Shown: positions 1-63,640 of the stretch, in pieces
Layout of the letters: each line of letters starts with the position of its first letter
Position numbering within the stretch: position 1 is the stretch's first letter
Assembly: GCA_039621445.1 (NCBI GenBank)
Contig: CP154954.1
Location: 47,533,847-47,597,846, forward strand
DNA length: 64,000 nucleotides
Direction: 5' to 3'
Source of the DNA: Euglena gracilis
Taxonomy: Eukaryota
Notes under the pieces: generated by a model
What the model saw: the letters and a program-made list of their open reading frames with translations, nothing else
What the model was told of the DNA's origin: nothing
Databases searched by the model: none
Made by a program: the position numbers and the translations under genes

Positions 1-215
1 GCCCCTCCAATGGGTCAAATTTTCTTTCCGGTTCTTCGCGGCGAAAATTTTGGGCATTTTTGATTTTTTTTTTTGCCCTAAAATTTTTTTTTGACCATTT
101 TGGAGGGTCAAAAATTCTCGGTGGGGGGCTTGGCGCCAGGCCGCAGATCAGTCACATGGACGGACCAGCACTGGGTGAGGGGTGGGGGGTGCCCCCCCCC
201 CCGGACTGGGTCTGA

Positions 216-874
<659 letters not shown>

Positions 875-913
875 GTCAATGCTGGTCGGCAGCAAGCCAA
901 CCACAATGCACGC
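875..913 (+). CDS. psaD: PsaD exon (VNAGRQQANHNAR)
   Basis: 13 codons matching the PsaD VNAGR...N.R segment. Confidence 0.9.
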
Positions 914-1550
914 AGCCAGAGCTCACAAGAGCACCCAAGAGCACACACAAGCACCCTATAGCACCCATCCGACCCCCCCCCCCCCCGGGGGTAGATGTTC
1001 CCCTGGGCTCCTGTCATGCTTGTGCTTACCGACCGGGGGGTGGGGGTGCCATAGGGTGCCTGCCTTTAGCAGGCACCCCCCCCCCCGGGGGGGGGTCCGG
1101 GGGGGGCGCAGAAAATTTTCATTGAAAATGGCCTTTTCCAGGCCCCCGGCGCCGAGGTCGGGGGGGGGGAGTACCTGGTATGGGCAGGCACCCCCAAGAA
1201 TCCTCCGAGGCGGGAGGATTTGAATTGGACACGGCAACCACGTGCCCATCCATTCCCAGGGTCGCGTGCACAGCCAAAAGGACGGGTAAAAGGAAGCGGA
1301 ATTGTTGAGGGTTTTCATTTTGACCCCCCGTGTTTGGGCAGTTCTCTGAAAAAGATGCGGGAGAAAATAATCTGGGAGAAAGTTGCAGCTTCAAGGACCT
1401 TTTCTCACCTCTTTTGAACAAATTCTGGGAGCCGGAGTTTTTTCAGGAGTCCCAATACCCGGTGATTTTGCAAAAAAAAATCCACCATTTGTCCACCGGA
1501 AATTTGTTTGGACCCCTCCTGCAAGCCATGGTCTGGTGGGCGCTGCGGGC
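914..1550 (+). other. Nonconventional (non-GT-AG) euglenid-type intron in psaD, 637 nt
   Basis: c|agcCAG ... CTGcgggc|a: Y|R at both junctions, CAG at +4..6, CTG at -8..-6, partly complementary ends. Removal gives NAR|SIGEN in frame. The exact register can slide because gcagc is repeated at both junctions. Confidence 0.85.
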
Positions 1551-1616
1551 AGCATCGGTGAAAACGTGGAGCCCGCCTCCGTGAAGTTCAGCGGCAGCAC
1601 CCCCAAGGATTTGTGA
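1551..1616 (+). CDS. psaD: PsaD terminal exon (SIGENVEPASVKFSGSTPKDL*)
   Basis: Matches the PsaD C-terminal pattern SIG.N..P..VKF.G....DL and ends in TGA. Confidence 0.92.
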   Translation, partial: SIGENVEPASVKFSGSTPKDL

Positions 1617-4900: not shown

Positions 4901-5740
4901 GACTGGCCAAGGTGATCGACCTGGCGACTGGGGCGGGGTGGCCACGGTGGTGAGGGCATCCCCACGCGGGACAACAGGAGGGGTGGCCGCAGTGCTCAGC
5001 CAGCATCCAAGGCAATCGTTGTCCTCCCTCGCTAACCTATATCTGGGAGGCAGGAAGGAGGTGACTGTGACACCGAAGCATTCACAGCTTGAGGAAAGAA
5101 TGGAGTTTAGGTTCCGGGCGACAGGTGGAGGGGTGGTTGAAAGTGAGCATGAACCCCGACAGTTGCAGGGTTTTGGCTGTATTTTGGCTTTTTTATTTCC
5201 GGCACAAAGCCCTGACAATTTTTGATATGACCCCCAAAAGTGGGTCCCGCAGACATAGATTCATTTATCACCGTGACCCACCCCCCACCCGGGTGTGTGC
5301 CCCCCATCCTGGCGGCAGGGGGTCCGACCACCCCAAGCCTTCCCGCATTCCAGGGGCGCCGATTTTTAGGTCCAAACTTGCTTTCGGTGCGAAGGAAATT
5401 TCTATGAGCGGGTCCCATGGTGCCCTCCCCACACTCCGGGTCCAACCCCCTGGGGGGGTCACCAAGTGAATCGATGCCCCAGCCCCCTCCTGAGAGGGAC
5501 ACCAACACACAGAGGTCATATTCACCACCTGCATCTGTCTGTGGAGTTGCATTGTCTATCCCTTGATTGACTGGCTTCCCCATGAGAGCTGCCTGTGTGA
5601 GCCAGGGAACAGCTTCCTTTTTGCAGACTTTTGTGTGTGCAAAATTTTCAGAGTTTCAACAGAGTGCTGGTGGCCGAGAAGGGGTTCCCTACGGGCCATG
5701 ACGAGAAATCGCCAATGGTGCAGTTGATTGTGGCATATCG

Positions 5741-6237
5741 CAGGGGGGGAGAAAATTGCACGTGCAATTTTTGCAGTTTTGTGCAATTTTCGATTTTCCT
5801 GAAATGTGCAATTTTTTTGCAATTTTGTGCAATTAATTGCACATGGTCCAGGACATTTTGTTTTGGAAAATGTCAGTTTTTGATACAATTGAGAACTTAC
5901 CGGGGTTTGTTTGCTAGGAAACTGGTGTGCGTAGTGAAAATTTCTGTTCAAAGGCTGTTTATTGTTGGTCTACTCAGTGTGCAAACCGATAATTGAATGA
6001 CTTAAGCATGACAAGTATGAAATGTGGTGCTTTCCCCTGGATGATGAACAAATTTAGGATGAATGGAGTAAGCACTGCCAACGCATATTGTCACGGATTG
6101 TGTTGCAATTTTTTGGGCGAACCGACCGGGTAAATTGGCAGAATATGCGGCCGGTCTAGTTTCTGGCATGGCTTTCTGGTATGTGTAATTTTGTGCGATT
6201 TTTTTGCACTGCAATTTTTTGTGCAATCCCCCCCCCG
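5741..6237. mobile_element. Non-autonomous TIR element (MITE), family CAG-G(n)-aaattgcac
   Basis: TIR-like ends with aaattgcac subrepeats and a 7-bp TSD catatcg/catgtcg. Homologous in inverted orientation to 62442-63607, with a partial copy near 37000. Confidence 0.8.
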
Positions 6238-11175: not shown

Positions 11176-14100
11176 CTCGTACTCCCTCGAGGAAAACCGA
11201 CAAGGGGGGAGGGACACCGAGGGCGAAACACAAAGACCTTGTGAGGCCATGCCTTGCTCGCCGGCGGTGTTGTTTGGATTGTTTACACGTTGGTTGTCAC
11301 GACCCGCCGTTGGACGGCCACGGGGCAGCTCATACTGCTTGCCGTGGCACGCCCTCAGACGGGGAACTACACCCAAGGTCCGGCCAACCAGTGTCTCGTC
11401 CTTGGGCGCAGTTACGCGCGCCGGTCGATCCCCGCGGTATGCCCTCTGCCCGTACGGGATCGACCAGGACTCACACGGCGGACCTTGGGTCTCGAACCCA
11501 CGACCTCCCGCGCGTGTGAGCCCAGCACCTTACCGAATAAGCTACTCGAGCGATACTCGGCTTGGTACTACGCGCCGGCTACCAACCTCCGTAGGATCTC
11601 CCGTCTGCCGCACACACTCCCCTCCCAAGAGCCTTACTACACTAGCCCACTGCGTCACTATGGCCGTGGCCCCTGCAGCTCGGGTTATGCCTCACACGGC
11701 CCTAGTTGGCTGAGTGCTTCTCACGAGTACTGCGTCACCAGGCTGCCGACCCCTGCAGCTCGGGTTTGCTATTGCCGGCAGTTTACGTGTTGTCGACTTC
11801 CACGGGCTCTGCCTCCTTGGAGCTCCCCCTTTGCATCGGCTTGAGACTTTGGAACGGTGTAGGAGTTTCAGTCGCCCTAGACTCGGCGCGTCCGCCTCCG
11901 CCTTCCGGGCGCCGTGGGGTCAGGCTCTGATTTCCCGGTTCGTGTGGCATTGGACGGGTTCCCCTGCTACCATGTTTACACGTTGGTTGTCACCACCCGC
12001 CGTTGGACGGCCACGGGGCAGCTCATACTGCTTGCCGTGGCACGCCCTCAGGCGGGGAACTACACCCAAGGTCCGGCCAACCAGTGTCTCGTCCTTGGGC
12101 GCAGTTACGCGCGCCGGTCGATCCCCGCGGTATGTCCTCTGCCCGTACGGGATCGACCAGGACTCACACGGCGGGACCTGGGTCTCGAACCCACGACCTC
12201 CCGCGTGCGAGCCCAGCACCTTACCGAATAAGCTACTCGAGCGATACTCGGCTTGGTACTACGCGCCGGCTACCAACCTCCGTAGGATCTCCCGTCTGCC
12301 GCACACAATTGTTTGCTGTGTTGTTTGGATTGTTTGCTGCGTGACTTCTTGCCCCTTGGGGGGTCCCCCCCCTCTCCCCCCCTGGCCCCCACTCTCTGAC
12401 CAAGGGCTCTTGAACACACATTTTCTTTTACAGGTGGGGGGGTCGGGCTCACAAGGTCTTTGTGCTTCGTCCTCGGTGTCCCTTCCTCCCTTGTCGGTTT
12501 TCCTCGAGGGAGTACGAGACACCTCGGGCTCCGCACTTTGCCCTTGTGAGGCCTGATTGTGCACTGAAATTAAGAGGGCCAGGGCATTTTCCAGGGCACC
12601 TTGGGCACCAAGTCTTTGATAATGGGCTGTAAAAGCCTCCACCCCCTCCACTGACCAAATTCACAAACTTCTTGGGCAGAAAGGCCGAATTTTTTGAGTA
12701 AACCAACTCCTGCCCCTCTGGTGGACTGGGCCAGCCAAACCTGCGGGGAGCCCACATGTTTGGCAAAAATTTGTTTTCTGATAGAAGCAACGGTGTTTGC
12801 ACTTATGGCTCTGAAGGGGGTTTTAATGAAATCAGGAGAGGCCCCCAGGTCTCACGAATAAACGTGTGGCAGCCACATAACCCATCATTAAATGAAAAGG
12901 GCTTATTTGTGGGCACTGGGGTATGGACACAAATCTCTTTCCCACTTGTCGAATTTTTCGACCTTACGTTCAATTTTGCTGTAGGGTGCCCTACCCAACA
13001 CACTGGTGGTTCGTTTGACTTGTGCCAGGTCGGAAGATCTGTATAAACAGAGGATTCGTGAGCAAAAGATCAGTTGTGTGCGCAATGTACAACTATCAGT
13101 GGGCAAAGGGACCTTGCTAGCCACAGGAGGATTGGGAGTGGATCCCAAAATGCCCCATACTTTTCCAGGTTCTGGTTCCAAAGCCTCTTGTAGGGAGTTA
13201 ACAGGGTGTGGAATCTCAGCCCACCAAACCCAGGAATCAAAGCATAGCACTATATGCATTACGGGCTTGGGCCTTGGAAAATTGGAATAATTGAATTAAA
13301 GCGTCAGCCACTTGGTCTGTGGTGGCTTCAGGGGGGGCACCCCCATGTGTTCCAAAATGACCCACAGAAGTGCAAAAGCACTCTGATAACGCTTTAGGTT
13401 GGGGTTTTCCCCAAGAAACCGTTAATGGTCTGAACCTGAATTTGTTTCCCCTCCAAAATTTGCCTGAGCAAATCATGCAAAACAGGGGCCACCTGGGGGG
13501 TGGCATTTTTCCCCCCTGCAGTTGGTGAACATACCGCTGTAGGGGGTGATTTTCAGGCAGGGGGTCCCTGGAACTTTCATTTTTATTAATTCGGGCCACC
13601 ACGTGGCTGAATCCCAGTAGGGGGTGACCATCAAAACTTTGGTCTGGGGAAACATTTTCAACCTGGGTAGAAATTGTGGAATTATTGACCAGGGGGGTTT
13701 GCATAAAGATCCCCCATGTTGTCCAGTGGACATTGTAATGCATTTACTGCTGTGGCCTCCCAGTGGGGCCACCTGGCCACAAATTGGGGCAGTTTTTTTG
13801 TTGCCTTGGGAGGCAAATAAATCTGTTTCCAGATGTAGGAAACCTTTGAATTGCTTTCTGAGCTATTGAAAAAGTTGGGGGTCTAAGGAGTAATCCCCCC
13901 TGTCCATTTCCCATCTGCTTATGGGGTCTGCCAGGCATTCTTTTGAAGGTACCCAGTTCACTTGAAGGGAAACTTGTTTCTCCATGCACCATTTGAAAAA
14001 AGGGTCTTAGCATTTTGTTGAAGGGGTCCTTTCTGCCCCCCCCTTTTGTCAGGTAATAGTAGATTGCTTGGTTGTCCACTGACAAAGAAACAGTTTCCCC

Positions 14101-16717
14101 AGGTTTGCTCAAACTTTTTACAGTGCTTATTGCTGCACTCAGCTCCTTTACATTTATGTGTAAAATGGAGCCTTTTCTCCAAAGTTCCTGCACAATTTCT
14201 CCTGTGTGGATGTCCAGCCCCCCCCAGGCATGGGTGCTGTCGTCTGAGTGTAACTCCCCTGGTTGCATTTTGGGGGAAGGGTCTGCCCCCCCAGGTGTCC
14301 AGCAGAGTTTTTATTTCCCTTAATTGGGCCTTGATTTCCTGGGAAATGGGGTGTTTTGAGTCCCAGGGGGCTGTGGACTTTGCCACCAAAAAATTTGCCA
14401 GGGTGTCTGTAAAAGCCCTTAAAAAGGGCAGGGCCATTAGGTTGAATCTTATTTGACCCAAAATGGCAGCCAGCTGCCTTTTTGACATGTAATCTTTTTT
14501 CACAACTTTTCCTAGCTCCTTTTTTATGGTTTTGGCTTCTGGGGGGGCACCTGCTGCTTTCCTTCCTGGAAGTTTAGTTGAAAACCCAGATGGGTTACCA
14601 CTTGGGAGGGCTGGAGGGTGGACTTTTTCACATTGATTTTGAACCCTGAATTCAGTAAATCTTTGACGACTGTGTTCAGGTTATTTTGTAAAGTGCTTTG
14701 GGTAGGGTCCACCGGCAAAATGTCGTTCAGGTAAATAAAGACCTGGATGCCCCTTTTTCTCCACATCTTTTCGAAAGTTTTCATAACTGACGTGAAAATT
14801 TGGGGCATTACATTTAGCCCAAAGCAGCCTGTTTGAAATTCCCAGGTCTGCCCCCCCACCTGATGCCTTAAAAATGGCCTTAGGCCTGGACTTAATGGAA
14901 TATGGAAATAGGCATCCTTCAGGTCTATTTTTGCTGCCCAGTGACCTTTTTCCAAAACTGGAAAAATGTGCTGGATATGATCCAGCTTGAAAGGTTTTAC
15001 CTGAAACTGCTGATTCAGTTCTCTGCAGTCGCTGATCATTCTCCACTTGGTTGTTCCCCCCCCCTATGGTTTTGAAATTGAAAACCATGGGATCAAATGC
15101 TGGGTTTCTGAATCCCAAACTCGTTTCACTGACCCAGTTTTTTTCGTAATCCAGAAGAATTTTTTCTGCCTGGTTTAGGTCCAAGTTGGCTCTGGGTTTT
15201 GGATGGGTGGACAACTTTGGGGGATTTACCCAGGGGGGTTGAATCCCATTTTTGATCAATTGACATGTTGCTGGGGGGCATGTTTTGACCACCATTGGAG
15301 ACTTTTTTGAAGTCTCTGGTACAGGGGGTGTCTCCCCATTTTTCCTCCATGGAATTTATTTTCCCAACTAGATGATTTTCTGGGGGCTGGGTGGGGGGCG
15401 TTGGACATTTCACAGCCCCTAGAGCCCCTAGGGCTTGAGCCCTTGGAAAAAGAAAATGTTTCTGGGGGGATGTGCACGCACTCTCTCCCTCTCTGCTCAC
15501 ACTCTCTCTGGAGGACCTTGTTGTTGGTTTCCATACCATAGGGCTTACTGCCCCGGATTTGCCTGTCTGGCCTTCTTGATGTTGATGGTGTTGGTAGCCA
15601 TACCATAGGGGGGCCACTGTGGGTCCCCCCCTTGCTGATTGAGCAGATATAAATGCTGGTGGGGAGTCTTCCCCTTCCTGTTCCTCCTGGGGCTGGGCAG
15701 GGGGCTGCCCATTTAAATACAAAGCCCTTGCAGGGCTGCCCCTTAGCTTCCGGCGGGGCCTGTGATGGACCCCCCTTGTGATCTTGTTGCAATTGATCTG
15801 CTTGATATTTCTGGCCCCACTGGCCTTGATGATAACTTGAAAGGCCACAAAGGCCTAATTGATTTCTGGGTCGCCATGCCCAATTGAAATCTTGAGGGGT
15901 TCTTGGGGCCCAACCCTTGACCCCTGGGGGGTGGTGTGATTGGGAAATGATGGGGATGGTGTGTCTGACCTTTTCTGCCCCTGCCATGTCCTGTGGGGCC
16001 TTGGTGCTGGTGGCAACCTTGGCCTTTGTTCCAGCGACTTTGGATGGTGTAGATGCCTTCATGGCTGGTTGTGCCGTCATGGCCTTTTTTGCCTCCATGG
16101 CCTGTGCGGCTCTGGCTGCAATAGCCCCGCTTGAACACATGATGTGTTTTGGAAAGTTGGCCACCATGGCCCTGGTTCCAATGGCCGCAGTGGCCTGCTG
16201 GTTGTTGCTTCTGCTCCTTGCGGGGTCTTCTGACCACTGTCTGCCAGGGTCCGTGGCCATCACTTTCGGGGGTTTGGGTTGTAAAAGTTTCTTTTGGGGA
16301 AATTTCTTTTGGGGAAGGGGCAGCCACGGTTCGCCACAGTCGACCCGCGCTGTCAGGTTGTCCAGGTGCTGCGGTTTCTGCTGCTGCCCCTTGAAGTTCT
16401 CCAGCGCTGTTCGTCTTGGAAATTGCATCTTTCATTGAAATCTTTCAGATACTTCAACAATTTCTGTTTTGAGGTTCTGCACGAGCGTCTCTTTCTGGAT
16501 ATTTTGAATTGATTGATTGACTTCTTCTTCTTCCAATTGATATGGTATTTGACGTTTTTTCTTCTGGGTGTCGAAGGGCAAATTAAGAATCAGCCAACTC
16601 CGGCGAAAAAAAGGCACTAAGCAGGTACTCCTAACCCAACGCAGCAAACAATCCAAACAACACCGCCGGAGAGCAAGGCATGGCCTCACAAGGGCAAAGT
16701 GCGGAGCCCGAGGTGTC
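11176..16717 (-). mobile_element. DIRS1-type retrotransposon B (family 2), degenerate
   Basis: Left ITR at ~16590-16693 and ICR at 12448-12553. The right ITR is interrupted by an LTR element and partly deleted. Fragmented RT (active site reads YLND), RNase H, methylase and YR (LYRSSD). Confidence 0.93.
11280..12307 (-). mobile_element. TRIM-like non-autonomous LTR retroelement
   Basis: Two near-identical TG...CA repeats (11280-11616, 11973-12307) around a ~355-bp core with no recognisable domain. On the minus strand, PBS TGGTAGCAG follows the 5' LTR and polypurine tract GGGAGGGGAG precedes the 3' LTR. Confidence 0.88.
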
Positions 16718-16894: not shown

Positions 16895-19404
16895 GGCACT
16901 TCGGTCTCTGCCATTGTGAGGCCATGCCTTGCTCGCCGGCGGTGTGGGTGTGATTGGGGCCATTCGGGCTCCGCACTGCGAGATGGTGAGGTCCTGCTTT
17001 CCTTGCCGGGTGGGGGGGTTGGGCCCACCATCTCCTTGTGCTTCGCCCTCTTGGTCCCTTCCTCCCCTTTCCTGTGTCGTGGGAGGCCGAGTTGGAACTT
17101 CGTGCCTTGTCGCCGGCGTTGACTGACCCTTAACTTTCCCTTCGACGCCCAGAAGAAAGGAAAAGAGTTCACGAACAAAGGAGAACCAAGTCAATATAAA
17201 TTCAATATCCAGAAGGGCACGAACCACGCAAATATCAAATGAAAAGTCAATCATCAAATCTCAATTTTGAATTCAACGAAAATGCTGTGGAAAAAAAATT
17301 GGAATTATATGGCCGCGGATGTCCTGCAGCAGTGGCCGCAGCAGCTGTACAACTTGGGGATGCGGTAGACACGTGGAAACCGGTGGCCGTTCTTCCCCCC
17401 CCCCCCCAGACCCCGACGCCAGAAATTTCCCAGCACAACCCCCCTCCCGAGTGACGGCCGCGGTCTTTGGACCATTGTGGCCAGAAGGCCCAGAAAACAG
17501 AAGTCAGCAAGTGGGCAAAGGATGGGCCATAGAGGCCCAAAATGCTTCACAAATGGACATCCAAAACCCACACATGAAGGGCATTGCCCCCCCAAAGGCG
17601 CCCAGTGGCCTGCACACAAATTGGTCAAAGGATGGGGAGACGGGATCAATGTCAAGGTGATCACCACTGCAGGGGCGATGGGGGCCACTTTTACAAGCAA
17701 ATCCCCTCAGGAAGGGGCAGAAGAGGTCTGTCAAGCCCCCCCCCCCAATTCATCTGGCACAACAGCCCCTCTCAAGGGGAAAAGGGGGGGCCACTGCAGC
17801 CCCCATATTTACAGTGGTTTTGGAGACCAAGAATAACTCAAGACCTGGAAGACCAAAAGGTGGATTATGGAAGTAAATTTGCACAGGGAGACCTTGGAGG
17901 ACAGCAGGGTGGACCCACAGTGGCCACCAAGAAGCTAAGGAAGTTGCTGGAGAAACCACCCGAGGGACCCACGAGGCCCTCTGTCAAAAAAAAATGGGAA
18001 AAAGGGACCCACGGTGGCCCTTTCAATGCTCCAGGAAGAAAAGGGACCCACAGCGGCCCTTTTGGAGGGAGGGGAAGTAACCCCTCCAACATTCACTTCT
18101 CAATTCCCGAAAATTCAATCAAGGGGGGACCCACAAGGCCCCCCTATGGTATGCCCACCAACCACATCAACATGGAGAAGACCTGAAAGACAAAACAGGG
18201 GTATTAAGCCCTGTGGTATGTCCTCCAACAACAAGACCCTCCAGAGAGGTGAGCAGAGAGGGAGAGAGTGCATGCACATCCCGCCAGAAAAAAATTCCTT
18301 TTCCAAGGGCTCAAGCCCTAGGGGACCTAGGGGTGCAATGTCCAACACCCCAAGCCCAGGCCCCCCAAAATCATCTTATCCAGGAAAAAAATCTTATCCA
18401 TGGAGTAAAAATGGGCAGACACCCCCCTCCATCAACGATCCTAAAATGAAGGACAAACAATGCCCCGCCAACAACATGTCAACTCATCAAGGATGGAAAC
18501 CCCCTGGGTAAGCCCACCAAAATTGCCCACCCATCCAAAACCCAGAGCAAATTTAAACCTTCACCGAGCAGAAAAAACACTGCAGGATTAAGAAAAATCT
18601 GGGTCTGTAGAGAGGGAGAGGGAAGGTTCCAAGTAAAACCTTTCAAGCTAGATCACATCCAGCACATTTTTCCAGTGTTGGAAAAAGGCCACTGGGCAGC
18701 AAAAATAGACCCGAAGGATGCTCACTTCCACATCCCAGTAAGCCAGGTCTTAAGGCCATTTCTAAGACATCGGGTGGGGGGGGCAGACCTGGGAATTCCA
18801 GGCAGGCTGTTTTTGGCCTGAATGTAATGTCCCAAGTTTTCATGTCAGTAATGAAGACATTCGAAAAGCTGTGGAGGAAAAGGGGCATCCAAGTTTTTAT
18901 TTACCTCGAAGATGTTTTAATGGTGGCCCCAACACAAAACATCTTACAAAATCACCTGAACACAGCGGTCAGGGATTTAATCAAATCAGGATTCAAAATC
19001 AACCTAAAAAAGTCCACCCTGCACCTAAATCGTAAATCATCTTGGGTTTTAACTAAACTTACAGGACAGAAAATTATAGGTGCCCCCCAGAAAATTAAGA
19101 CAGTAAAAAAGGAGCTGGGAAAAATGGGCAAAAAGATTACATGTCAAAAAGGCAGCTGGCTGCCATTTTGGGCCAAATCAGGTGCAATCTGATGGCCCCA
19201 GCCTTTCCAAGGGCCTTTGTGGATGCCCGAGAAAAATTTTTGGTGGAAAATTCCAAAGCCCCCTGGGACTCAAAACACCCATTTCCCAAAGAATAAAGGA
19301 CCAATTAAGAGAAATAAAACTTCTGCTGGACACCTGGTGGCAGACCCTTCCCCCAAAGTGCAACCAGGGAGTTTTGCTCAGACAGAAGCACCCGTGCCTG
19401 GGGA
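16895..19404 (+). mobile_element. DIRS1-type retrotransposon E (family 2), degenerate, interrupted by element C
   Basis: Decayed left end, then gag-like and RT remnants (YLED) colinear with element D. Stops in RNase H at 19404 and resumes briefly at ~22999-23014. Confidence 0.88.
16958..17091 (+). mobile_element. 134-bp miniature family-1 DIRS derivative inside the left ITR of E
   Basis: The family-1 left end (ccattcgggctccgcactgcgagatggtgagg...) is joined to the family-1 right-extension sequence, which ends ccgag. Confidence 0.85.
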
Positions 19405-22400
19405 GACACCTCGGGCTCCGCACTTTGCCCTTGCGAGGTCATGCCTTGCTCGCCGGCGGTGTTGTTTTGATTGTGTGCTGCGTTGGGTTAGGAGTCCCTG
19501 CTTAGTGCCTTTTTCCTCGGAGTTGGCTGATTCCTAATTTGCCCTTCGACTCCCAGAAGAAAGGAACGTCAAATACCTCATCAATTGAGAAAAGAAGAAG
19601 ACAATCAATCAATTCAAATTTTCCAGAAAGTCACGCTCGTGCAGAACCTCAAATCAAAAGTTGTTGAATTTTTTGAAAGAAGTCAATGAAAGATGCAACG
19701 TCTAAGAAACACAGCGCTAGAAAACTTCAAGAGGGCAGCAGCAGCTGGACAACCTGACGACGCGGGGGGCCAGCTGGAAGGGGGAGACTCCCCACCAGCA
19801 TTTATTCAGTCAACAAGGGGGGGACCCTCAGAGGCCCCCTAGGGTATGGCTACCAACCCCATCAATATCAAGCAGACCAGAGAGGCCAAACAGGGGCAGT
19901 AAGCCCTGTGTGGTATGTGTTCCAACAACAACATGCTCCAGAGAGAGGAGAGAGCAAGCACACCCCCCAGTAACATTTTGTTTTTCCAAGCGCTCTAGCC
20001 CTAGGGGCTCTAGGGGCTGTGAAATGTCCAGCACTCCCTACCCAGCCCCTAAACAATCATCTAATTCAGGAAAGAAATTCCATGGAGGAAAAATGGGGAG
20101 ATACCCCCTGTACCAGAGACTTCAGAAATGTACAAAATGGTAGCAACATGTCAATTGATTGATCAACGGAATTCAACCCCCCTGGGTAAATCCCCCAAAG
20201 TTGTCCACCCACCCAAAACCCAGAGCCAATCTGGACCTGAACCAGGCAGGAAAAATCCTGTTGGATAACGAAAATACTGGCTCAATAAAACGAGTTTGTG
20301 ATTCAGAATCCCAGCATTTAATCCCATGGTTTCTAATTTCGAAACCAGAGGGGGGAACAACCAAGTGGAGAATGATCAGCGACTGCAGAGAAATAAATCA
20401 GCAATTTTAAGTAAAACCTTTCAAGCTGGATCATATCCAGCACATTTTTCCAGTTTTGGAAAAAGCCCACTGGGCAGCAAAAATAGACCTGAAGGATGCC
20501 TATTTCCATATTCCATTAAGTCCTGGCCTAAGGCCAATTTTAAGGCATCAGGTATGGGGGCAGAGCTGGGAATTTCAAACAGGATGCTTTGGGTTAAATG
20601 TAATGCCCCAACTTTCATGTCAGTAATGAAAACATTCGAAAAACTGTGGAGAAAAAGTGACATCGAGGTCATTATTTACCTGGACGACATTTTGCTGGTG
20701 ACCTCCACCCAAAACATTTGAACATTGAACAGAGTTGTCAAAGATTTGCTGAATTCAGGGTTAAAAATCAATGTGAAAAAGTCTACCCTGCAGCCCACCC
20801 AAGTGGTAACCCACCTGGGTATCCAACTAAACTTCCAGGAAGGAAAGCTGCAGGTGCCCCCCCAGAAAGTCAAAACCATAAAAAAGAAGCTGGGAAAAAC
20901 CGTGAAAAAGGATTAACTGTCAAAAAGGCAGTTGGCTGCCATTTTGGGTCAAATAAGGTGCAATCTATTGGCCCTGCCCTTTTTAAGGGCTTTTACAGAC
21001 ACCCTGGCAATTGGTGGCAAAGTCCACAGCCCCCTGGGACTCAAAACACCCCATTTCCCAGGAAATCAAGGCCCAATTAAGGGAAATAAAAACTCTATTG
21101 GACACCTGGGGGGGCAGACCCTTCCCCCAAAATGCAACCAGGGGGTTGCACTCAGACGGCAGCACCCATGCCTGGGGGGGGCTGGACATCCACACAGGAG
21201 AAATTGTGCAGGAATTTTGGAGAAAAGGCTGGTCGTGATTATTCGTGCTACCCAAAAATCGCCCGTTTTTTTTTTAACTTATCCTGCCCAGAAAACCAAT
21301 GCACACTCCTCATCTATTGTGTATCACCTCCAACGGCAGAAATATCAAAAACGAAACTCTATGACCACCGAAATTGGACAACAATATTGAACATAAAGCA
21401 AAGCTGCAGACAGAAAGTGACAATGACAATAACAAGTGAAAATGACGTTGTTGCTGACGCCCCCCCGGTCAATAATTCAACAATTTCGGCCCAGGTTGAA
21501 AATGTTTCCCCAGACCAAAGTTTTGATGGTCACCCCCTACTGGTATTCAGCCATCTGGTGCCCCCAATTAATGAAAATGAAAGTGCCAGGGACCTCCTGC
21601 CTGAAAATCACCCCCTACATGGGGTATGTTCACCAATTTAGGGGGGAACAAATGCCACCCCCCAGGTGGCCCCTGCTTTGCATGATTTTTTCAGGCAAAT
21701 TTTGGAGGGGAAACAAATTCAGGTTAAGACCATTAAAGATTTACTGGGGATAAACCCCAGTTTAAAGTGTCATCAGAGTGCTTTTGCACTTCTGTGGGTA
21801 ATTTTGAAACACATGGGGGTGCCCCCCGCTGAAGCCACCACTGACCAAGTGGCTGACGCTTTTATAAAATTATTCCAATTTTCCAAGGCCCAAGCCCGTA
21901 ATGCATACAGTGCTATGCTTTTGATTCCTGGGTTTGGTGGGCTGAGATTCCACACCCTGTTAACCCCCTATAAGAGGCTTTGAACTAAAACCTGGAGAAG
22001 TATGGTGCTTTTGGGATCCCCTCCCAGTCCTCCTGTGGCTAGCAAGGTCCCTTTGCCCACTGATATTTGTACGTTGCGTACCCAGCTGATTTTTTGCTCA
22101 CGAATTCTCTGTTTATATCGATCCTCTGACTTGGCACAAGTCAAACGAACCACCAGTGTTTTGGGTATGGCACCCTACATTTAATTTAAACGTAAAGGCC
22201 AAAAGTCTCACAAGTGGGAAAGGGTGGTGTCCATTCCCCAATGCCCACAAATAAGCCCCTTTCATTTAATGATGTCTCATGTGGCTGCTACACGTTCATT
22301 CGTCAGACCTGGGGGCCCCCTTCTAATTTCTTTAAAACCCCCCCCTTCAGGGCCATAAGTGCAGACACTGTGGCTTCTATCACAAAAGATTTTTTGGCCA

Positions 22401-22998
22401 AGCATGGGGTGACCCCCCAGGTGTGGGGGGCCCACTCCACCAGAGGGGCAGGAGTTGGTTTACTCAAAAAATTCGGCCTTTCTGCCGAAGAAGTTTGTGA
22501 AATTGGCCAGTGGTGGAGGGGGTGGAGGCTTAAACAGCCCACTATCAACGACTTGGTGCCCAAGGTGCCCTGTAAAATGCCCTGGCCCCCCTAATTTCAG
22601 TGCACAATCTGGCCTCACAAGGACAAAGTGCGGATCCCGAGGTGTCTCGTACTCCCTCGAGGCAGACCGAGAAGGGAGGAAGGTACACCGAGGGCGAAGC
22701 ACAAACAACTTGTGAGCCCGCCCCCCCCCCCCGTAAAAGAAAAGCCCTCAGTCAGAAAATGGGGGCCAGGGAGGACAGAGGGGGGGACACCCCCCCAGGG
22801 GCAAGAAGTCACGGCGCCAAGTCGGAGCAGCATCGTCAGCCAACTCCGGCGAGGCGGCGCTAAGCAGGGCCTCCTAACCCAACGCAGCAAACGATCAAAA
22901 CAACACCGCCGGCGAGCAAGGCATGGCCTCACAAGGTCTTTGTGCTTCGCCCTCGGTGTCCCTTCCTCCCTTGTCGGTTTTCCTCGAGGGGGTGCGAG
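19405..22998 (+). mobile_element. DIRS1-type retrotransposon C (family 2), internally deleted, nested in E
   Basis: Both ITRs and an ICR (~22612-22716), RT YLDD and YR HSTRGAG. Gag region shortened. Part of RNase H/methylase is replaced by unrelated DNA at ~21231-21460. Flanked by GAG on both sides. Confidence 0.92.
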
Positions 22999-23473
22999 GG
23001 CTGGGCACTCGAATTCATGCGTTCGTTCCATGACCACAAATTCCATGACCACACACTCGTTTGTTCCCTGGCGTTTTTGGCGAAGGGACAGGCAGGAGGC
23101 CTAGAGCTTTCCAGGTCCTTTGCCAAAAACCCTTTCCTCCGCACTTTGTTTGAAGACGCTCGATTTAGAGAGGCACGAAAACCCTGAGGACCGAGGAGAC
23201 ACCTCGGGCTCCGCACTTTGCCATTGTGAGGCCATGCCTTGCTCGCCGGCGGTTTGTTGTGTGATTGTTCGCTGCGCTGGGTTAGGAGGTCCCGCTTAGT
23301 GCCTTTTTTCGCCGGAGTTGGCTGATTCCTAAATTGCCCTTCGACACCCAGAAGAAAGGAAAAGAGTTCACGAACGAAGAAGAACCGAGAAAAGAAGTCA
23401 ATATCAATTCAATATCCAGAAGGACACGAACCAGACGAATATCAAATCAAAAGTCAATTATCAAATTTCAAAT

Positions 23474-26400
23474 TTGACTTCAATGAACAATGCAGTTGAG
23501 AAGAAATTGGAATTTCACGGCCGCGGACGTCCTGGAGCAGATGCCGCAGCAGCTGGAGAACTTGGAGATGCGGTCATCACGTGGCAAACCGTGGCCGTTC
23601 TTCCCACCCAGCCCCCCACCCCAGAAATTTCCCAGCCCAAAACCCCCCCCAGTGACGGCCACGGTCCTTGGACCACAGTGGCCAGAAGGCCCAGAAGACA
23701 GAAGCCAGCACCAGCCCTTTCTGGGCAAAGAATGGGCCATGGGGGCCCAAAATGCTTCAAATGCAAAATGCTTGGCCAATCAAAGCCCACACATCAGGGG
23801 CATCTCCCCCAAAGGCGCCCAGCAGCCTGGGCACAAATTGGCCAGAAGATGGGGAGATGGAATCAAGGCCAAGGAGGTCAACACCACAGGGGCCATGGGG
23901 GCCAGTTTTTCAAGCAAATCCCCTCAGGAAGGGGCAGAAAAGGTCTGTCCAACCCCCCCAATTCATCTATCACAACAGCCCCTCTCAAGGGGACAAGGGG
24001 GGGCCACAGCAGCCCCCCCAGATTTCCAATGGGGTTGGAGGCCAAGAAGAAATCAAGGCCTGGAAGACCACAAGATGGATTATGGAAAAAAATTTATACA
24101 TGGAAACCTTGGAGACCAGCAGGGTGGACCCACAGTGGCCACCAAGAAGCTAAAGCACCAGCAGGGTGGACCCACAGTGGCCACCAAGAAGCTAAGGCAG
24201 CTGCTGGAGAAATCCCCCGAGGGACCCACAGAGGCCCTCTGCCAAAAATGGGGGAAAAAGGGACCCACAGTGGCCCTTTCATTGACCCAGCCCCAGGAGG
24301 AAAAGGGACCCACAGTGGCCCTTATGGAGGGAGGGGCAGGAACCCCTCCAACAATTATTCCTCAATCCCCAATGATTCAATCAAGGGGGGGACCCACAGA
24401 GGCCCCCCTATGGTATGTGAACCAACCACATCAACCTGGAGAAGACCAGATAGGCAAAACAGGGGCATTAAGCCCTATGGTATGTCTTCCAACAACAAGA
24501 TCATCCAGAGAGTTGAGCAGAGAGGGAGAGAGTGCATGCACATCCCCCCAGAAAAAATTTCTTTTTCCAAGGGCCCAAGCCCTAGGGGACCTAGGGGTGC
24601 AATGTCCAACACCCCCAACCCAGCCCCCCCAGAATCATCTTATCCAGAAAATAAATTCAATGGGGGAAAGAGGGGGAGACACCCCCCTCCATCAAAGGTT
24701 GCAAAAAAGCCTAAAATGTCCAACACCCCCAGCCCAGCCCCCCCAAAATCATCTGATCCAAGAAATAAATTCCATGGAGGAGAAATGGGGAGACACCCCC
24801 CTCCATCAAAGGCTGCAAAACAGCCTAAAATGGTGGACAAAAAATGCCCCCCCAACAACATGTCAACTCATCAGGGATGGCATTCAACCCCCCTGGGTCA
24901 GCCCACCAAAATTGTCCACCCACCCAAAACCCAGAGCCAACCTGGACCTGAACCAGGCAGAAAAAATACTGTTGGATTACGAAAAAACTGGGTCAATAAA
25001 CGAGTTTGGGATTCAGAAACCCAGCATTTAATCCCATGGTTTCTAATTTCGAAACCAGAAGGGGAAACAACCAAATGGAGAATGATCAGCGACTGCAGAG
25101 AATTAAATCAGCAGTTTCAAGTGAAACCTTTCAAGCTGGATCACATCCAGCACATTTTTCCAGTTTTGGAAAAGGGCCACTGGGCAGCCAAAATAGACCT
25201 GAAAGATGCCTATTTTCATATTCCAGTAAGTCCAGGCCTAAGGCCATTTTTAAGGCATCAGGTGGGGGGGCAGACCTGGGAATTCCAGGCAGGCTGTTTT
25301 GGCCTGAATGTAATGCCCCAAATTTTCATGTCAGTCATGAAAACATTCGAAAAGCTGTGGAGGAAAAGGGGCATCCAGGTATTTATTTACCTGGACGACA
25401 TTTTGCTGGTGGCCCCAACACAAATCATCTTACAAAATCACCTGAACACAGTGGTCAGGGATTTAATCAAATCTGGGTTCAAAATCAATGTAAAAAAGTC
25501 CACCCTGCAGCCCACCCAAATCGTAAATCATCTTGGATTTCAACTAAACTTTCCAAGAGGGAAAATTACAGGTGCCCCCCCAGAAAATAAAAACAGTAAA
25601 AAAGGAGCTGGGAAAAATGGTGAAAAAAGATTACATGTCAAAAAGGCAATTGGCTGCCATTTTGGGCCAAATCAGATGCAATCTCATGGCCCTGCCCTTT
25701 CTAAGGGCCTTTACGGATGCCCTGGCAAATTTTTTAGTGGAAAATTCCACAGCCCCCTGGGACTCAAAACACCCCATCTCCCAAAGAATAAAGGACCAAT
25801 TAAGAGAAATAAAAAACCTGCTGGACACCTGGGGGGGCAGACCCTTCCCCCAAGGTGCAACCAGAGAGTTGCACTCAGACAGCAGCACCCATGCCTGGGG
25901 GGGGCTGGACATTCGAACAGGAAAAACTGTGCAAGAATTTTGGAGGGAAAACTCCATTCTGCACATAAATGTCAAAGAATTAAGTGCAGCAATAAGCACA
26001 GTTCAAAGCCTAAGCAAACCAGGAGAAACTGTGTCCCTATCCGTGGACAATCAAGTAATTTACTATTACTTAACAAAAGGGGGGGGCAGAAAAGACCCCT
26101 TCAATTCCATGCTAAGACCCTTCTTCAAATGGTGCATGGAACACAACATAAACCTGCAAGTAAAGTGGGTCCCCTCAAAAGAATGCCTGGCAGACCCCAT
26201 AAGCAGGTGGGAAATGGACAGGGGGGATTATTCCCTAGACCCCCAACTTTTTCAATGGCTGAGGCAGCAGTTCAAAAATTACATAAGCCTGAAAACAGAC
26301 CTTTTTGCCTCACCAGGCAACAAAAAACTGCCACAATTTGTGGCCAGGTGGCCCCACTGGGAAGCCACAGCAGTGGATGCATTGCAATGTCCACTGGACA

Positions 26401-27848
26401 ACATGGGGGGCCTTTATGCAAATCCCCCCTGGTCTTTAATTCAAAAATTTCTCCCCAGATTAAGAAGGTTTCCACAAGCCAAAGTTTTGATGGTCACCCC
26501 CTACTGGGATTCAGCCACATGGTGGCCCCAGTTAATAAAAATGAAAGTACCAGGGTCCCCCTGCCTGAAAATCACCCCTTACAAGGGTATGTTCACCAAT
26601 TGCAGGGGGGAAGAAATGCCACCCCCCAGGTGGCCCCTACTTTGCATGGTTTGCTCAGGCAAATTCTGGAGGGGAAACAAATACAAAATACATCCATTAG
26701 CGATTTCCTGGGAAGAAACCCCAGCTTAAAGCGTTATCAAAGCGCTTTTACGCTTTTATGGGTGATTTTGGACAAAATGGGGGTACCCCCCCCTGAAGCC
26801 ACCACTGACCAAGTGGTTGACGCTTTAATTCAACTGTTTCAATTTTCAAAGGCCCAAGCACGCAATGCATACAGTGCTATGCTATTAATCCCTGGCTTTG
26901 GGGGCCTGAGGTTCCATACCATGTTAGCACCTTATAAAAGGCTTTGGAACCAAAACCTGGAGAAATATGGTGCATTCTGGGATCCCCTCCCAATCCTCCT
27001 GGGGCTGGCACAGTCCCCCCTGCCCTCTGATATTTGTACATTGCGTACACAACTCATTTTCTGTTCACGCATCCTCTGTTTATACAGAAGTTCAGATTTG
27101 GCACAGGTCCAAAGAACCACCAGTGTGTTGGGGGGGGCACCCTACATCAAAATTAAACGTAAAGGGCAAAAGCTCCATAAGTGGGAGAGAGTTGTCTCCA
27201 TTCCCCAGTGCCCCCAAATCAGCCCCTTTCATTTAATGATGGCTTATGTGGCAGCAACACGTTTCTTTATGAAACCTGGGGGCCCCCTGTTAATTACGTT
27301 AAAACCCCCCTACAAAGCCATTAAGGCAGATACCATTGCTTCTATCACCAAAGAATTTTTGACCAAACAGGGGGTACCCCCCAGGTTTGGGGACCCCACT
27401 CCACCAGAGGGGCAGGGGTTGGTTTACTCAAAAAATTGGGCCTTTCTGCCCAAGAAGTTTGTGAAATTGGTCAATGGAAGGGGGTGGAGGCTTTCACAGC
27501 CCACTACTTGGTGCCCAAGGTTCTTTGGAGAATGCCCTGGCCCCCCTTTTTTCAGTGCACAATCTGGCCTCACAATGGCAAAGTGCGGAGCCCGAGGTGT
27601 CTCGTACTCCCTCGAGGCAGACCGAGAAGGGAGGAAGGGACACCGAGGGCGAAGCACAAAGACATTGTGAGCCCGACCCCCCCACCCACATACGAAAATT
27701 TGTCTTCAAACGCCCTCGGTCAGAAGATGGGGGCCAGGGGGGGGCAGAGGGGGGGGGACCCCCCCAGGGGAAAAGACAGCGCCATGGTCGCCACGTCGGA
27801 GACAATGCAGCCAACTTCGGCGAGGCGGCACTAAGCGGGACCTCCTAA
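23474..27848 (+). CDS. DIRS D overlapping frame: gag-like N-terminus to C-terminal tyrosine recombinase
   Basis: DGHGPWTTVARR and CFKC..H near the start. YR motifs LYRSSD, HSTRGAG and AHY from ~26640. Further indels near 27380 and 27506. The frame continues through the ICR to a stop at 27848. Confidence 0.75.
23490..26729 (+). CDS. DIRS D pol frame: N-terminal extension, RT, RNase H, N6-adenine methylase (two compensating 1-nt indels)
   Basis: ORF 23490-25031, the RT portion of 23474-27670 and ORF 25572-26729 join after adding an A near 24998 and removing a T near 25552 (copy C has the uninterrupted versions). Motifs YLDD, HSDSS, HINVKEL, DLFAS, NPPW. Confidence 0.85.
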
Positions 27849-28117
27849 CCCAGCGCAGCGAACAATCACACAGCAAACCGCCGGCGAGCAAGGCATGGCC
27901 TCACAATGTCTTTGTGCTTCGCCCTCGGTGTCCCTTCCTCCCTTCTCGGTCTGCCTCGAGGGAGTACGAAAAGAGCCTCCCCGTTGTTTAAAACTTGCGG
28001 TCTTGAAGAAAAAAACAGGGGTACCCCTTGAAGGCAACCAAAGCTGCCGCAGCTCCCCCCCAGGTCCCCATTCGCGAGGCCGGGACAGTGCTCCCAGTGG
28101 TTTGGTTTTGGTATGCC

Positions 28118-45156: not shown

Positions 45157-45840
45157 CAGAGGCTTCTCTTCGGCTGCACCGACATCAACGTCTGTAACTG
45201 GGAGTCTGCGAATAACAGGGCCGACGTCGGCCCCCAGCAGGTCCGCCCAGTACGGGTGGTTTACCGGCACGCGGTGGCGGAAGAAGAAGCCCCGCAGCAG
45301 CTGCTGCCGCCGCAGCGTCTCCTCCGGGAACGACGATGCCTTGCCGTACGTCATGCTGGCCGGGCTGTGGCGCGACATGCTGCGATATCGGTTGCTCACC
45401 ACTGCAGCGGTACGGTGGGGCAGCAGCGCCGTGACCGTCTTCCAGTCGATCGGTCCACTCTGCGATTCCACAGCACTGAGAATGGTCTGGTCCTCCTCCG
45501 CCGTGAACGCGTCGGGGCCAGGCTGCCACCCACGAGGGCACCCATATGGTATCCGTGCGCAGCCTGGGCGTAGCTGCAGAAGACCCGCCGGAAGATGTCA
45601 CCGACGAGGTGAGTAATACGTTTCTTCTTGCTGCACAGTGTCTGCGCCGTTGGCCACAGCTTGTCCAGGTCGAGCCAGCCCTCCTCCTGAAGGCAGTCGG
45701 CGATGCACCGGACGACGGCCTCGAGGTGGCCCTCCTCCGGGGTGGCGGGGGTGATGTAGGGGACGGGGGCCAAATATCGCAGTGACTGGGGCTGGGCCAG
45801 AGGGTACTCCACCGTTCCTCTTAGGTTCAGCCCATATTCC
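45157..45840 (-). CDS. Large exon with Myb/SANT-like domain, one apparent frameshift near 45540
   Basis: FTAEEDQTILSAVESQSGPIDWKTVTALLPHRTAAVVSNRY fits the Myb pattern [WF]T.EED..I.......W..[IV]A..LP.RT....NR[YW]. The GC3-rich upstream part is in a different frame. Confidence 0.75.
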
Positions 45841-45927
45841 CTGACAGGCCTTTCTGATCTTTGAACTGAATGCCGCCCAAAAACAAACGAGAGACTTAAA
45901 AAAACAACTGTATACCTATGGAAGGCC

Positions 45928-53300: not shown

Positions 53301-53954
53301 TCCAACTAGTTTGTTCGCCGGGGGCCTTCAGCCGACTGAATTTTATTGCATTTTCCTTGGTTCCCCAAGCCACCCTGGAGGGGCGGTGTGCCGGAGGGGT
53401 GGTTATTTGATTAGGGTTAAAATAGGTCAGGGAGGTCCTTAAGCATAAAAAGGTTCCCAGCACATTCAATGAAAAAACCACAGGAAAAATGGTCCATATT
53501 TTGGCAAAACGGGTCGACTTCGAGGGGAAAACATGATTTCTGGTATTCTTGGACCATCGCCCATCCATCCAAAATGTCAAAATGCGTTTTTTTCAACCTT
53601 TTCATATTTTTACTCCATTCGAGCCCTGGACCATCGACCGGCCCTTGGGCCCAAGGGCGATCCTAAAGCGGCGGTCCTTAAACAAAAAAAATCATCCAAA
53701 AGAATCACCCGTCCCTTGTGGACCGCCCTGGTTAGGGTTAAAGTCAGTGTTAAGAATGGGGTAAGGTCACGACCTTCTATTACGCTTCAGGACTAATTTA
53801 CAATGAAATTTCGGCCCGACTTCGGCCTCACTTTTGGCCTAAATACCAGCCATAATCTGAACATGTGTTGTCTTTTCCCTTAAACAGGAGTGGCAGGAGG
53901 TTCCAATCAAGACATTTTGTTTCTGCAGAAAGCACTGGTCGCGCTGTAGCTCAC

Positions 53955-54179
53955 CGTCCATCCAGCGGGCCCAGTACTGGCTGAAGAGGCCCAAGGCGAA
54001 TGCCCGGGAGCGTGCGGACGCCACAGGCTTCTGAACCTTCTTTCCGGCGACCCGCCGGGCGAAACATCTCTTGACAAGCTTCAGCTGCAGGCCTGGCAGT
54101 AATGAAAAGATTCTCTGCTCCGGCAGACCCCGCCGGTGCAGGTCGTAAAACACCTCAGACGTGCTGCCGAACACAGAGT
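53955..54179 (-). CDS. Exon of minus-strand gene (SVFGSTSEVFYDLHRRGLPEQRIF...QYWARWMD)
   Basis: GC3-rich frame continuous with the upstream exon once the MITE insertion is removed. Probable gtgagc donor. Confidence 0.7.
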
Positions 54180-54184
54180 CCGAC

Positions 54185-54293
54185 CATGCTTGTGCTTACC
54201 GACCGGGGGGGGGAGGTGGGTGCTATAGGGTGCCTGCCCCTAACACCCCCCCACCCCCTCGGTGGGGTAGGCACCCGACTAAGCACAAGCCTG
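54185..54293. mobile_element. 109-bp MITE with 8-bp TSD (hAT-like) between two in-frame coding blocks
   Basis: TIRs catgcttgtgctta and taagcacaagcctg, perfect TSD agtccgac (54177-54184, 54294-54301). The same family occurs at 1016-1065 and, inverted, at ~951-968. Confidence 0.9.
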
Positions 54294-54296
54294 AGT

Positions 54297-63607: not shown

Positions 63608-63640
63608 CCCCACGGCATATGCCACCCACCCCCCGTTCAC

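What the first reader, a model, noticed from the sequence alone, without database searches (positions are those of the whole stretch)
909..1553. psaD nonconventional intron looks like an aged transposon insertion in the same 5+3 register
Seen: the 8 nt before CAG are cacgcagc (909-916) and the 8 nt after CTG are cgggcagc (1546-1553). They are 6/8 identical, and the differing bases of the second copy lie inside the intron. The ends CAGagctcacaagag and (reverse complement) CAGcgcccaccagac match at 11/15. The intron also holds pieces of the 54185 MITE family. PsaD homology fixes the intron length independently. Inference: these are a decayed TSD and TIR, i.e. an older product of the process proposed at 54177-54301.
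Basis: partly seen in the sequence, partly recalled or inferred. Interest (0 to 1): 0.75.

Follow-up and report, generated by a model that had tools for sequence, protein, structure and literature searches.

The report
Euglena psaD nonconventional intron, transposon-like ends
This is a typical Euglena "nonconventional" intron in a photosystem I gene whose flanks look like the worn footprint of a transposon insertion, which fits an already published idea about where such introns come from but does not prove it for this intron.

Summary
The feature is a 637-nt nonconventional (NC) intron in the last PsaD unit of a Euglena gracilis-type psaD polyprotein gene. Its canonical register is 914-1550, with CAG at +4..+6 and CTG at -8..-6, the published 3-nt and 5-nt spacers, and a terminal helix.

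The transposon reading is plausible but weakly supported for this intron. 6/8 has p about 0.007 against window composition and about 0.023 against older published E. agilis NC introns, where flank matches cluster at the two bases beside each cut. The inverted ends are needed for splicing, and no other copy of the termini exists in the window.

The general model is better supported:
- The MITE at 54185-54293 has an 8-bp duplication and an empty-site paralog.
- The youngest published NC intron (E. agilis gapC intron 4) shows 8/8 in exactly this "5+3" register.

MITE origin and TSD-like repeats are already in print. I did not find the link "3+5 spacers = 8-bp TSD, hAT-like" in print.

Verdict: a new member of a known kind, of moderate interest.

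The parts
481..668 (+). psaD exon (third PsaD unit), entered in phase 1 after an ...AG acceptor at 479-480
   Evidence: Pfam PsaD E=2.7e-29, profile positions 43-105. 97% identical to E. gracilis PsaD record P0003.
669..874 (+). Conventional GT-AG intron, with a 4-nt junction repeat AGGT
   Evidence: Sequence. Offset-206 comparison. Exon continuity with P0003.
875..913 (+). Short psaD exon (VNAGRQQANHNAR; the Ser codon can come from either side of the intron)
914..1550 (+). Nonconventional intron, 637 nt, phase 0, shown in the canonical register. Starts 912-917 all give the same mRNA, and none has GT/GC-AG ends.
   Evidence: Junction fixed by P0003. The 3-nt/5-nt spacer rule is from PMC12501133.
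909..916 (+). Left 8-mer CACGCAGC, the putative TSD copy 1 (5 nt exon + 3 nt intron)
917..931 (+). 5' arm beginning with CAG. It is also the start of a 10-nt tandem array spanning 918-967.
1015..1100 (+). Nested, 3'-truncated copy of the 54185 MITE
1531..1545 (+). 3' arm ending with CTG. It pairs with 917-931.
1546..1553 (+). Right 8-mer CGGGCAGC, the putative TSD copy 2 (5 nt intron + 3 nt exon)
1551..1616 (+). Last psaD exon, running to the stop codon
54177..54301 (.). Reference MITE. The element is 54185-54293 (CAT...CTG, 13 of the first 14 nt match as a TIR), flanked by AGTCCGAC on both sides. The exact repeat is really 12 nt. It sits inside a minus-strand ORF.
   Evidence: Empty-site paralog P0123.
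45514..45569 (-). Second NC intron in the window: 56 nt, gcc-CAG-GCTGC...GCAGC-CTG-gcccc. The 8-nt register scores 5 of 8.
   Evidence: Homology to P0125 across FCSY|D.FT with a frame change. Fold.

Best explanation
Positions 914-1550 are an ordinary euglenid nonconventional intron in the last PsaD unit of a psaD polyprotein gene. The pre-mRNA pairs CAG (917-919) and the bases after it with CTG (1543-1545) and the bases before it. The still unidentified NC-splicing machinery then cuts 3 nt upstream of CAG and 5 nt downstream of CTG, joining ...CGC to AGC ATC... in frame. The helix, the spacing and the junction are shown here at sequence and protein level. The cutting itself is taken from published experiments.

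The most likely origin (inferred) is a short non-autonomous DNA transposon with CA...TG ends, hAT-like, that made an 8-bp target-site duplication, CACGCAGC. Removing the element plus 3+5 = 8 flanking nucleotides restores the original reading frame exactly. The insertion was therefore tolerated, and its inverted ends were kept as the splicing helix. The intronic halves of the two TSD copies were free to drift, and two changes are seen at 1547-1548. The interior later grew through a 10-nt minisatellite and a nested, now truncated, MITE copy.
For: NC intron:
- None of the six mRNA-compatible registers has GT/GC-AG ends.
- CAG lies at +4..+6 and CTG at -8..-6, with a purine starting the 3' exon.
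- 14 of 17 bases pair at the ends; the duplex is -18.4 kcal/mol against -11.3 +/- 2.8 for shuffles.
- The junction matches P0003, and also P0005 and P0006.
- The 3-nt/5-nt rule and the need for CAG/CTG were shown experimentally (PMC12501133, passages).

Transposon origin:
- 6/8 in the predicted register, with both mismatches in intronic bases; p is 0.0067 to 0.023.
- Both termini read CAGAG and CAGCG, which fit the hAT terminal motif YARNG; 8-bp TSDs are the hAT hallmark (PMC3014272, passage).
- The same window holds a bona fide element with CA-/-TG ends, an 8-bp duplication and an empty-site paralog.
- A second NC intron in the window scores 5/8.
- The newest published NC intron has 8/8 in the same register (PMC4770533 text; supplement, counted by eye).
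- The MITE-origin hypothesis and 'TSD-like' junction repeats are in print.
Against: - In my hand tally of the published E. agilis junction table, 54 rows at nine older N or I/N positions give 157 of 432 matches. Per position the counts are 15, 11, 20, 9, 31, 35, 18 and 18 of 54. The outer four positions are at chance (55 of 216), and the excess sits at the two bases flanking each cut, a Y|R consensus.
- 22 conventional-intron rows in that table average 3.45 of 8, with 4 rows at >=5 and none at >=6. Short junction repeats are therefore not specific to transposon origin.
- 82% of E. agilis CAG-CTG introns are 'slidable', and so are 95% of its GT-AG introns (Dataset S7).
- The inverted ends are maintained by splicing, so they cannot count twice.
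- The termini have no second copy in 64 kb.
- The repeat extends 2 nt into CTG.
- In the minimum-free-energy fold the exon's own CGCAGC (911-916) pairs with 1542-1547 and the canonical CAG is bulged out.
- No transposase was found in the 178 ORFs of 118 aa or more.
- I found no cDNA and no orthologous empty site.
Confidence: 0.5

Rival explanations
1. It is a standard NC intron, but the flank similarity is not a TSD remnant. It comes from the sequence preference at both cleavage sites (pyrimidine|purine, plus weaker preferences nearby) together with chance. The origin of this intron stays unknown.
For: The per-position tally of older E. agilis NC introns shows enrichment only at positions 5 and 6 (31 and 35 of 54), with 55 of 216 in positions 1-4 (counted by eye). 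Four of the six psaD matches are positions 5-8. Conventional introns reach 5/8 from their own consensus (4 of 22 rows), and this window's own conventional intron scores 4/8. A blind window scan for CAG...CTG pairs with DR>=6 and stem>=8 gave 8 hits against 1-5 in 14 offset controls, and most of the hits were not elements.
Against: Even against that background, >=6/8 has p of 0.023, and only 1 of 54 older rows reaches it. The mismatches fall only on unconstrained bases. Young insertions (gapC intron 4 and the 54185 MITE) show full 8/8 in this register.
Confidence: 0.33
2. The intron arose by repair of a staggered double-strand break with filler DNA. The repeat is fill-in of the overhangs rather than a transposase footprint, and the pairing ends evolved afterwards under selection for splicing.
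For: The authors who found the 8-nt repeats at the newest gapC intron proposed this (PMC4770533, passages). The repeat at offset 637 is 8 of 10 and not neatly 8 nt. The interior is a patchwork of G/C-run repeats and a minisatellite.
Against: It does not explain why the ends already carry CA...TG inverted repeats in the newest published intron. It also does not explain why a true repeated element with the same end type and the same 8-bp duplication exists in this window.
Confidence: 0.12
3. A former conventional intron lost its GT-AG ends and was taken over by the NC pathway.
For: A transition between intron types is one of the hypotheses in PMC3935182 (abstract). The neighbouring psaD introns are conventional.
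Against: No GT/GC-AG is left in any of the six registers. The full NC signature is present. The published view is that NC positions are lineage-specific gains.
Confidence: 0.05

Closest known systems
Euglenid nonconventional introns (Milanowski et al. 2014, PMC3935182; 2016, PMC4770533; PNAS 2025, PMC12501133)
   Same: Non-GT-AG ends, CAG at +4..+6, CTG at -8..-6, a terminal helix, 3-nt and 5-nt spacers, a purine at the start of the 3' exon, a short direct repeat that makes the boundary 'slidable', and a length within the published range.
   Different: Nothing structural. This intron has not been described in the papers I read (the term psaD has 0 occurrences in PMC12501133 and PMC11170887).
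Transposon-derived introns / introners (review PMC11282704; Micromonas, Fritillaria, Amoebophrya)
   Same: A short TIR element inserted in an exon, with a TSD at or near the junctions; removal at RNA level makes the insertion harmless.
   Different: Introners are removed by the spliceosome using GT/AG supplied by the element or its TSD. Here removal is by a pathway guided by a helix with fixed offsets. No family of copies is shown for this intron.
hAT-superfamily non-autonomous elements (8-bp TSD, YARNG termini; PMC3014272)
   Same: The flank repeat sits in an 8-nt register. The termini CAGAG/CAGCG fit YARNG. The window's MITE has an 8-bp duplication and CA-/-TG ends.
   Different: No transposase, no family for the intron, and the TSD is only 6/8. 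The MITE ends CATGC/CAGGC do not fully fit YARNG.
Merlin transposons of E. gracilis (PMC8101967)
   Same: The only DNA transposons I saw documented in E. gracilis. They have 8-bp TSDs (passages).
   Different: Merlin TIRs end in 5'-GG-3'. Both the intron and the MITE here start with CA.

Membership tests
Euglenid nonconventional intron | No GT/GC-AG ends in any register compatible with the mRNA | tested here: met
   Six equivalent registers (starts 912-917); the end dinucleotides are GC-GG, CA-GG, AG-GC, GC-CA, CC-AG and CA-GC.
Euglenid nonconventional intron | CAG at +4..+6 and CTG at -8..-6, i.e. 3-nt and 5-nt spacers | tested here: met
   Register 914-1550, with CAG at 917-919 and CTG at 1543-1545. 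The rule comes from PMC12501133.
Euglenid nonconventional intron | A helix next to CAG/CTG that brings the two ends together | tested here: met
   14 of 17 pairs; duplex -18.4 kcal/mol, equalled by 15 of 1000 shuffles. In the global MFE a competing helix, 911-916 with 1542-1547, is used instead.
Euglenid nonconventional intron | Junction confirmed in the mature message | tested here: inconclusive
   Confirmed at protein level only. P0003 reads ...NHNARSIGENVEP.... I could not tell whether that record rests on cDNA, and no transcript data were available.
Euglenid nonconventional intron | Spliceosome-independent removal as a circular RNA | not testable with these tools
   Known only from the literature cited in the review passages.
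TIR DNA transposon / MITE (this intron) | A target-site duplication of fixed length directly flanking the termini | tested here: inconclusive
   6 of 8; p is 0.0067 to 0.023.
TIR DNA transposon / MITE (this intron) | Terminal inverted repeats | tested here: met
   11 of 15. This is confounded, because the same pairing is needed for NC splicing.
TIR DNA transposon / MITE (this intron) | Several copies sharing the termini | tested here: not met
   No further copy of either terminus in the 64-kb window. The genome could not be searched.
TIR DNA transposon / MITE (this intron) | An empty site in a paralog or relative | not testable with these tools
   The other two PsaD units and other euglenid psaD genes lie outside the window, and no euglenid DNA collection was available.
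TIR DNA transposon / MITE (element 54185-54293) | TIR, TSD, a second copy and an empty site | tested here: met
   13 of the first 14 nt match as a TIR. The 8-bp flanks are identical, within a 12-nt exact repeat. A second copy starts at the same CATGC. Paralog P0123 is colinear except for a 39-codon gap.
hAT superfamily | hAT transposase, or a demonstrated autonomous partner | tested here: not met
   No transposase domain in the 178 ORFs of 118 aa or more in the window. This is not expected for a MITE, so it is uninformative.

The most novel reading that the evidence does not exclude
The fixed offsets of Euglena's nonconventional splicing (3 nt before CAG, 5 nt after CTG) sum to 8 because the pathway evolved as an RNA-level 'precise excision' of hAT-like elements with CA...TG ends, removing each element together with one copy of its 8-bp target-site duplication. 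On this reading, NC introns such as the psaD one are aged insertions, and elements like the MITE at 54185 are the still-mobile source. In four searches and the passages I read, I found the MITE hypothesis, 'TSD-like repeats' and one 8-nt repeat. I did not find this numerical link or a named element family.
Probability: 0.4. Interest if true: 0.8.

Novelty: new member of a known kind. Interest (0 to 1): 0.5.

Why it matters
The origin and removal mechanism of euglenid nonconventional introns are open questions, and these introns make up most introns in Euglena (PMC12501133). This psaD intron adds only one weak data point.

Read together, three things turn a vague 'MITE-like' hypothesis into a sharp one that public genomes could test:
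- this intron,
- the true 8-bp-TSD element in the same window, and
- the published 8/8 repeat of the youngest known NC intron.

The prediction is that flank identity should be a step function of length 8 in the 5+3 register, decaying with intron age, and that young introns should cluster into element families.

Tried and rejected
1. A blind window scan for CAG...CTG pairs with 8-nt flank repeats found 8 pairs with DR>=6 and stem>=8, against 1-5 in 14 offset controls. DR>=7 alone gave 59, against 44-73 in the controls, which is noise. The one perfect hit (27618-27953, 8/8 and 12/12) is not a TSD case. Its flanks are palindromic and continue the inverted repeat, and it belongs to the end of a DIRS-like retroelement. 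The hits at 24229/24268/24313-25182 and 58081/59197 lie in repeats or palindromes.

2. A scan for CAG...CTG candidates whose removal joins ORFs of 60 codons or more gave 149 candidates with random-looking flank scores. Open frames are too common in this DNA for the scan to be informative. It also missed both true introns, because of a short exon in one case and a short stem in the other.

3. I compared the three or four retroelement copies for MITE-sized indels. The only private insert, 24657-24770, is a 114-nt tandem duplication.

4. A search for longer relatives of the ORF half upstream of the MITE found none. The downstream half did find the paralog.

6. Rfam gave no family in the window.

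7. Not done:
- No euglenid genome or transcript collection was available. So there was no cDNA check, no cross-species intron comparison and no genome-wide family search.
- The published junction table was tallied by eye because I did not type its sequences into a script. The counts may be off by a few.

Full report
**What the locus is.** The window begins inside a Euglena psaD gene. Positions 483-671 match Pfam PsaD (E=2.7e-29, profile positions 43-105), and positions 1554-1613 match profile positions 119-134 weakly.

The best database relative of the first exon is a 698-aa protein that UniRef names photosystem I reaction center subunit II of Euglena gracilis (P0003; 97% identity). It contains three PsaD units (three Pfam stretches). 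The window carries the last unit.

- The translations of 875-916 (VNAGRQQANHNARS) and 1554-1616 (IGENVEPASVKFSGSTPKDL*) abut exactly as in the C-terminus of P0003.
- Two other euglenid-like PsaD sequences, P0005 and P0006, also have no insertion there.

The gene structure is therefore:

| Feature | Coordinates |
|---|---|
| Exon | 481-668 |
| GT-AG intron | 669-874 |
| Exon | 875-913 |
| Intervening sequence (637 nt) | 914-1550 |
| Last exon, to the stop codon | 1551-1616 |

The junction is therefore confirmed at protein level only.

- Six intron registers (starts 912-917) give the same mRNA, and none has GT/GC-AG ends.
- Only the register 914-1550 places CAG at +4..+6 and CTG at -8..-6. This is the geometry shown experimentally for Euglena NC introns: 3 nt before CAG, 5 nt after CTG, and a purine starting the 3' exon (PMC12501133, passages read).
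- The ends form 14 of 17 pairs. The duplex energy is -18.4 kcal/mol against -11.3 +/- 2.8 for shuffles, and 15 of 1000 shuffles do as well.
- In the whole-intron and two-piece minimum-energy folds a competing helix is used instead. The exon's CGCAGC (911-916) pairs with 1542-1547, and the canonical CAG is bulged out. That alternative register would not give the known protein.

**Is 6/8 more than chance?**

- For random position pairs in this window, P(>=6/8) is 0.0067-0.0068.
- The core of the signal is a 5-nt exact repeat, GCAGC; the probability of the last five being exact is 0.0017.
- At the same offset the similarity continues 2 nt into CTG (8 of 10). A strict 8-bp TSD does not predict this.

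**A published control set.** The supplement of Milanowski et al. 2016 (PMC4770533) prints 5 exon nt plus 20 intron nt at both ends of every tubB, hsp90 and gapC intron in six E. agilis strains. That is exactly what the '5+3' 8-mer comparison needs. I tallied it by eye, so the counts may be off by a few.

| Set | Rows | Matches | Rows >=5 | Rows >=6 |
|---|---|---|---|---|
| Nine older N or I/N positions | 54 | 157 of 432 (mean 2.91 of 8) | 7 | 1 |
| Conventional (C or C/I) | 22 | 76 of 176 (mean 3.45 of 8) | 4 | 0 |

- In the older NC rows the per-position matches are 15, 11, 20, 9, 31, 35, 18 and 18 of 54. The outer four positions are at chance (55 of 216). The excess sits at the two bases flanking each cut, which is the known pyrimidine|purine preference.
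- The conventional rows owe their matches to the AG|GT consensus.
- With the position-specific NC frequencies as background, P(>=6/8) is 0.023, P(>=5/8) is 0.108 and P(8/8) is 1.4e-4.
- The strain-specific, recently gained gapC intron 4 (two alleles) scores 8 of 8 in exactly this register, around an element with CAT...ATG ends. The paper's text notes 'eight nucleotide direct repeats' and reads them as double-strand-break repair.

**The reference MITE.** The element 54185-54293 has CAT...CTG ends (13 of its first 14 nt match as a TIR). It is flanked by AGTCCGAC on both sides. The exact repeat is really 12 nt, GAGTCCGACCAT.

- The copy nested in the psaD intron begins exactly at CATGC, which supports the 8-bp partition.
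- The element interrupts a minus-strand ORF. Deleting 117 nt restores an open frame of about 260 codons.
- A 169-aa paralog (P0123; 89% identity over the downstream half) is colinear with the locus except for a 39-codon gap at the element. That is an empty site.
- This ORF family has no Pfam domain of its own. A second member lies at about 45.2-45.8 kb.
- On the coding strand the element reads CAG...ATG. Whether it is spliced is unknown. 'CAG-nnn' introns are a recognised class in E. agilis (Dataset S7).

**A second NC intron in the window.** Homology to P0125 across FCSY|D.FT, with a frame change, defines a 56-nt intron on the minus strand at 45569->45514. It reads gcc-CAG-GCTGC...GCAGC-CTG-gcccc. 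It obeys the 3/5 rule and scores 5 of 8 in the 8-nt register.

**What does not support the reading for psaD.**

- The termini have no other copy in 64 kb.
- The inverted ends are needed for splicing, so they cannot count as independent TIR evidence.
- The MITE material inside the intron is a 3'-truncated nested copy, together with G/C-run repeats shared with other parts of the window.
- The 5' arm is part of a 10-nt tandem array at 918-967.
- No transposase domain occurs in the 178 ORFs of 118 aa or more; they yield only reverse transcriptase, weak RNase H and Dam-like hits, and Myb.
- Window-wide scans added no clean further case.

**Comparison with what is known.**

- The MITE-origin hypothesis dates from 2013 (PMC3935182, abstract and passages).
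- A 2024 review states that TSD-like repeats are frequent at NC junctions and draws them in a figure (PMC11282704, passages).
- The 2025 PNAS paper repeats the MITE idea and reports that 84.4% of E. agilis introns are slidable. In its Dataset S7, 129,984 of 157,875 CAG-CTG introns and 148,480 of 156,999 GT-AG introns are slidable.
- 8-bp TSDs with YARNG termini are the hAT hallmark (PMC3014272, passage), and the psaD ends CAGAG/CAGCG fit that motif.
- The only DNA transposons I saw documented for E. gracilis are Merlin elements. They also have 8-bp TSDs, but their termini are GG (PMC8101967, passages).
- Searches combining Euglena or nonconventional introns with transposon, target site duplication, TSD, hAT or transposase returned no paper that states that the 3+5 spacers equal an 8-bp TSD, or that names a Euglena MITE family. 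Subscription journals and unread full texts may hold such a statement.

**Verdict.** The object is a normal NC intron, which makes it a new member of a known kind. The 'aged transposon' reading is reasonable, and I put it at about even odds for this intron. The broader model it illustrates is better supported by the MITE and by the published youngest intron than by psaD itself.

Noticed in passing
window 1-1616; protein P0003: psaD is a polyprotein gene: the E. gracilis record has three PsaD units (698 aa). The window starts inside the gene and holds only the last unit. That unit differs from P0003 at 2 residues of the first exon (ENVFYFS against ENIFYFA).
   Followed up: partly
window 12340-16717 (-), 17098-22997 (+), 23195-27969 (+): Three or four copies of one retroelement, 72-89% identical to each other. 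One has an intact 1445-codon ORF (23333-27667) with reverse transcriptase. Weak RNase H and Dam-methyltransferase-like hits suggest a DIRS-like element (that name is recalled, not tested).
   Followed up: partly
window 27601-27970: A 336-nt hairpin element with roughly 54-nt perfect inverted arms, CAG...CTG ends and the palindromic flanks CCTCGAGG. The inverted repeat runs on beyond the flanks, so the 8/8 'TSD' is spurious. Its arm recurs at 22663, and it lies at the 3' end of the retroelement.
   Followed up: partly
window 24657-24770: A 114-nt in-frame tandem duplication that is private to the intact retroelement copy.
   Followed up: yes
window 57613-60857: At least 8 copies of a 22-nt palindrome of the form GAATGCGCA-SS-TGCGCATTC, with an E-box-like centre (CACCTG, CAGGTG or CACGTG). 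The half-motif gave 21 matches against 4.9 expected. Its meaning is unknown.
   Followed up: partly
window 45190-45848 (-) and 53842-54621 (-): Two members of an unnamed protein family (relatives P0123-P0127). One carries a Myb-like domain and a 56-nt nonconventional intron (45514-45569). The other is interrupted by the MITE.
   Followed up: partly
window 911-916 with 1542-1547: The exon's own CGCAGC can pair with GCTGCG at the intron's 3' end, and it wins in the minimum-energy fold, bulging out the canonical CAG. Using that register with the 3/5 rule would remove 4 extra nt.
   Followed up: partly
window 11280-11616 and 11973-12307; 5740-6227 with 62479-63608: A 337-nt direct repeat at 97% identity, and two inverted-repeat pairs (82-90% identity) that link the 6-kb and 63-kb regions.
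   Followed up: no
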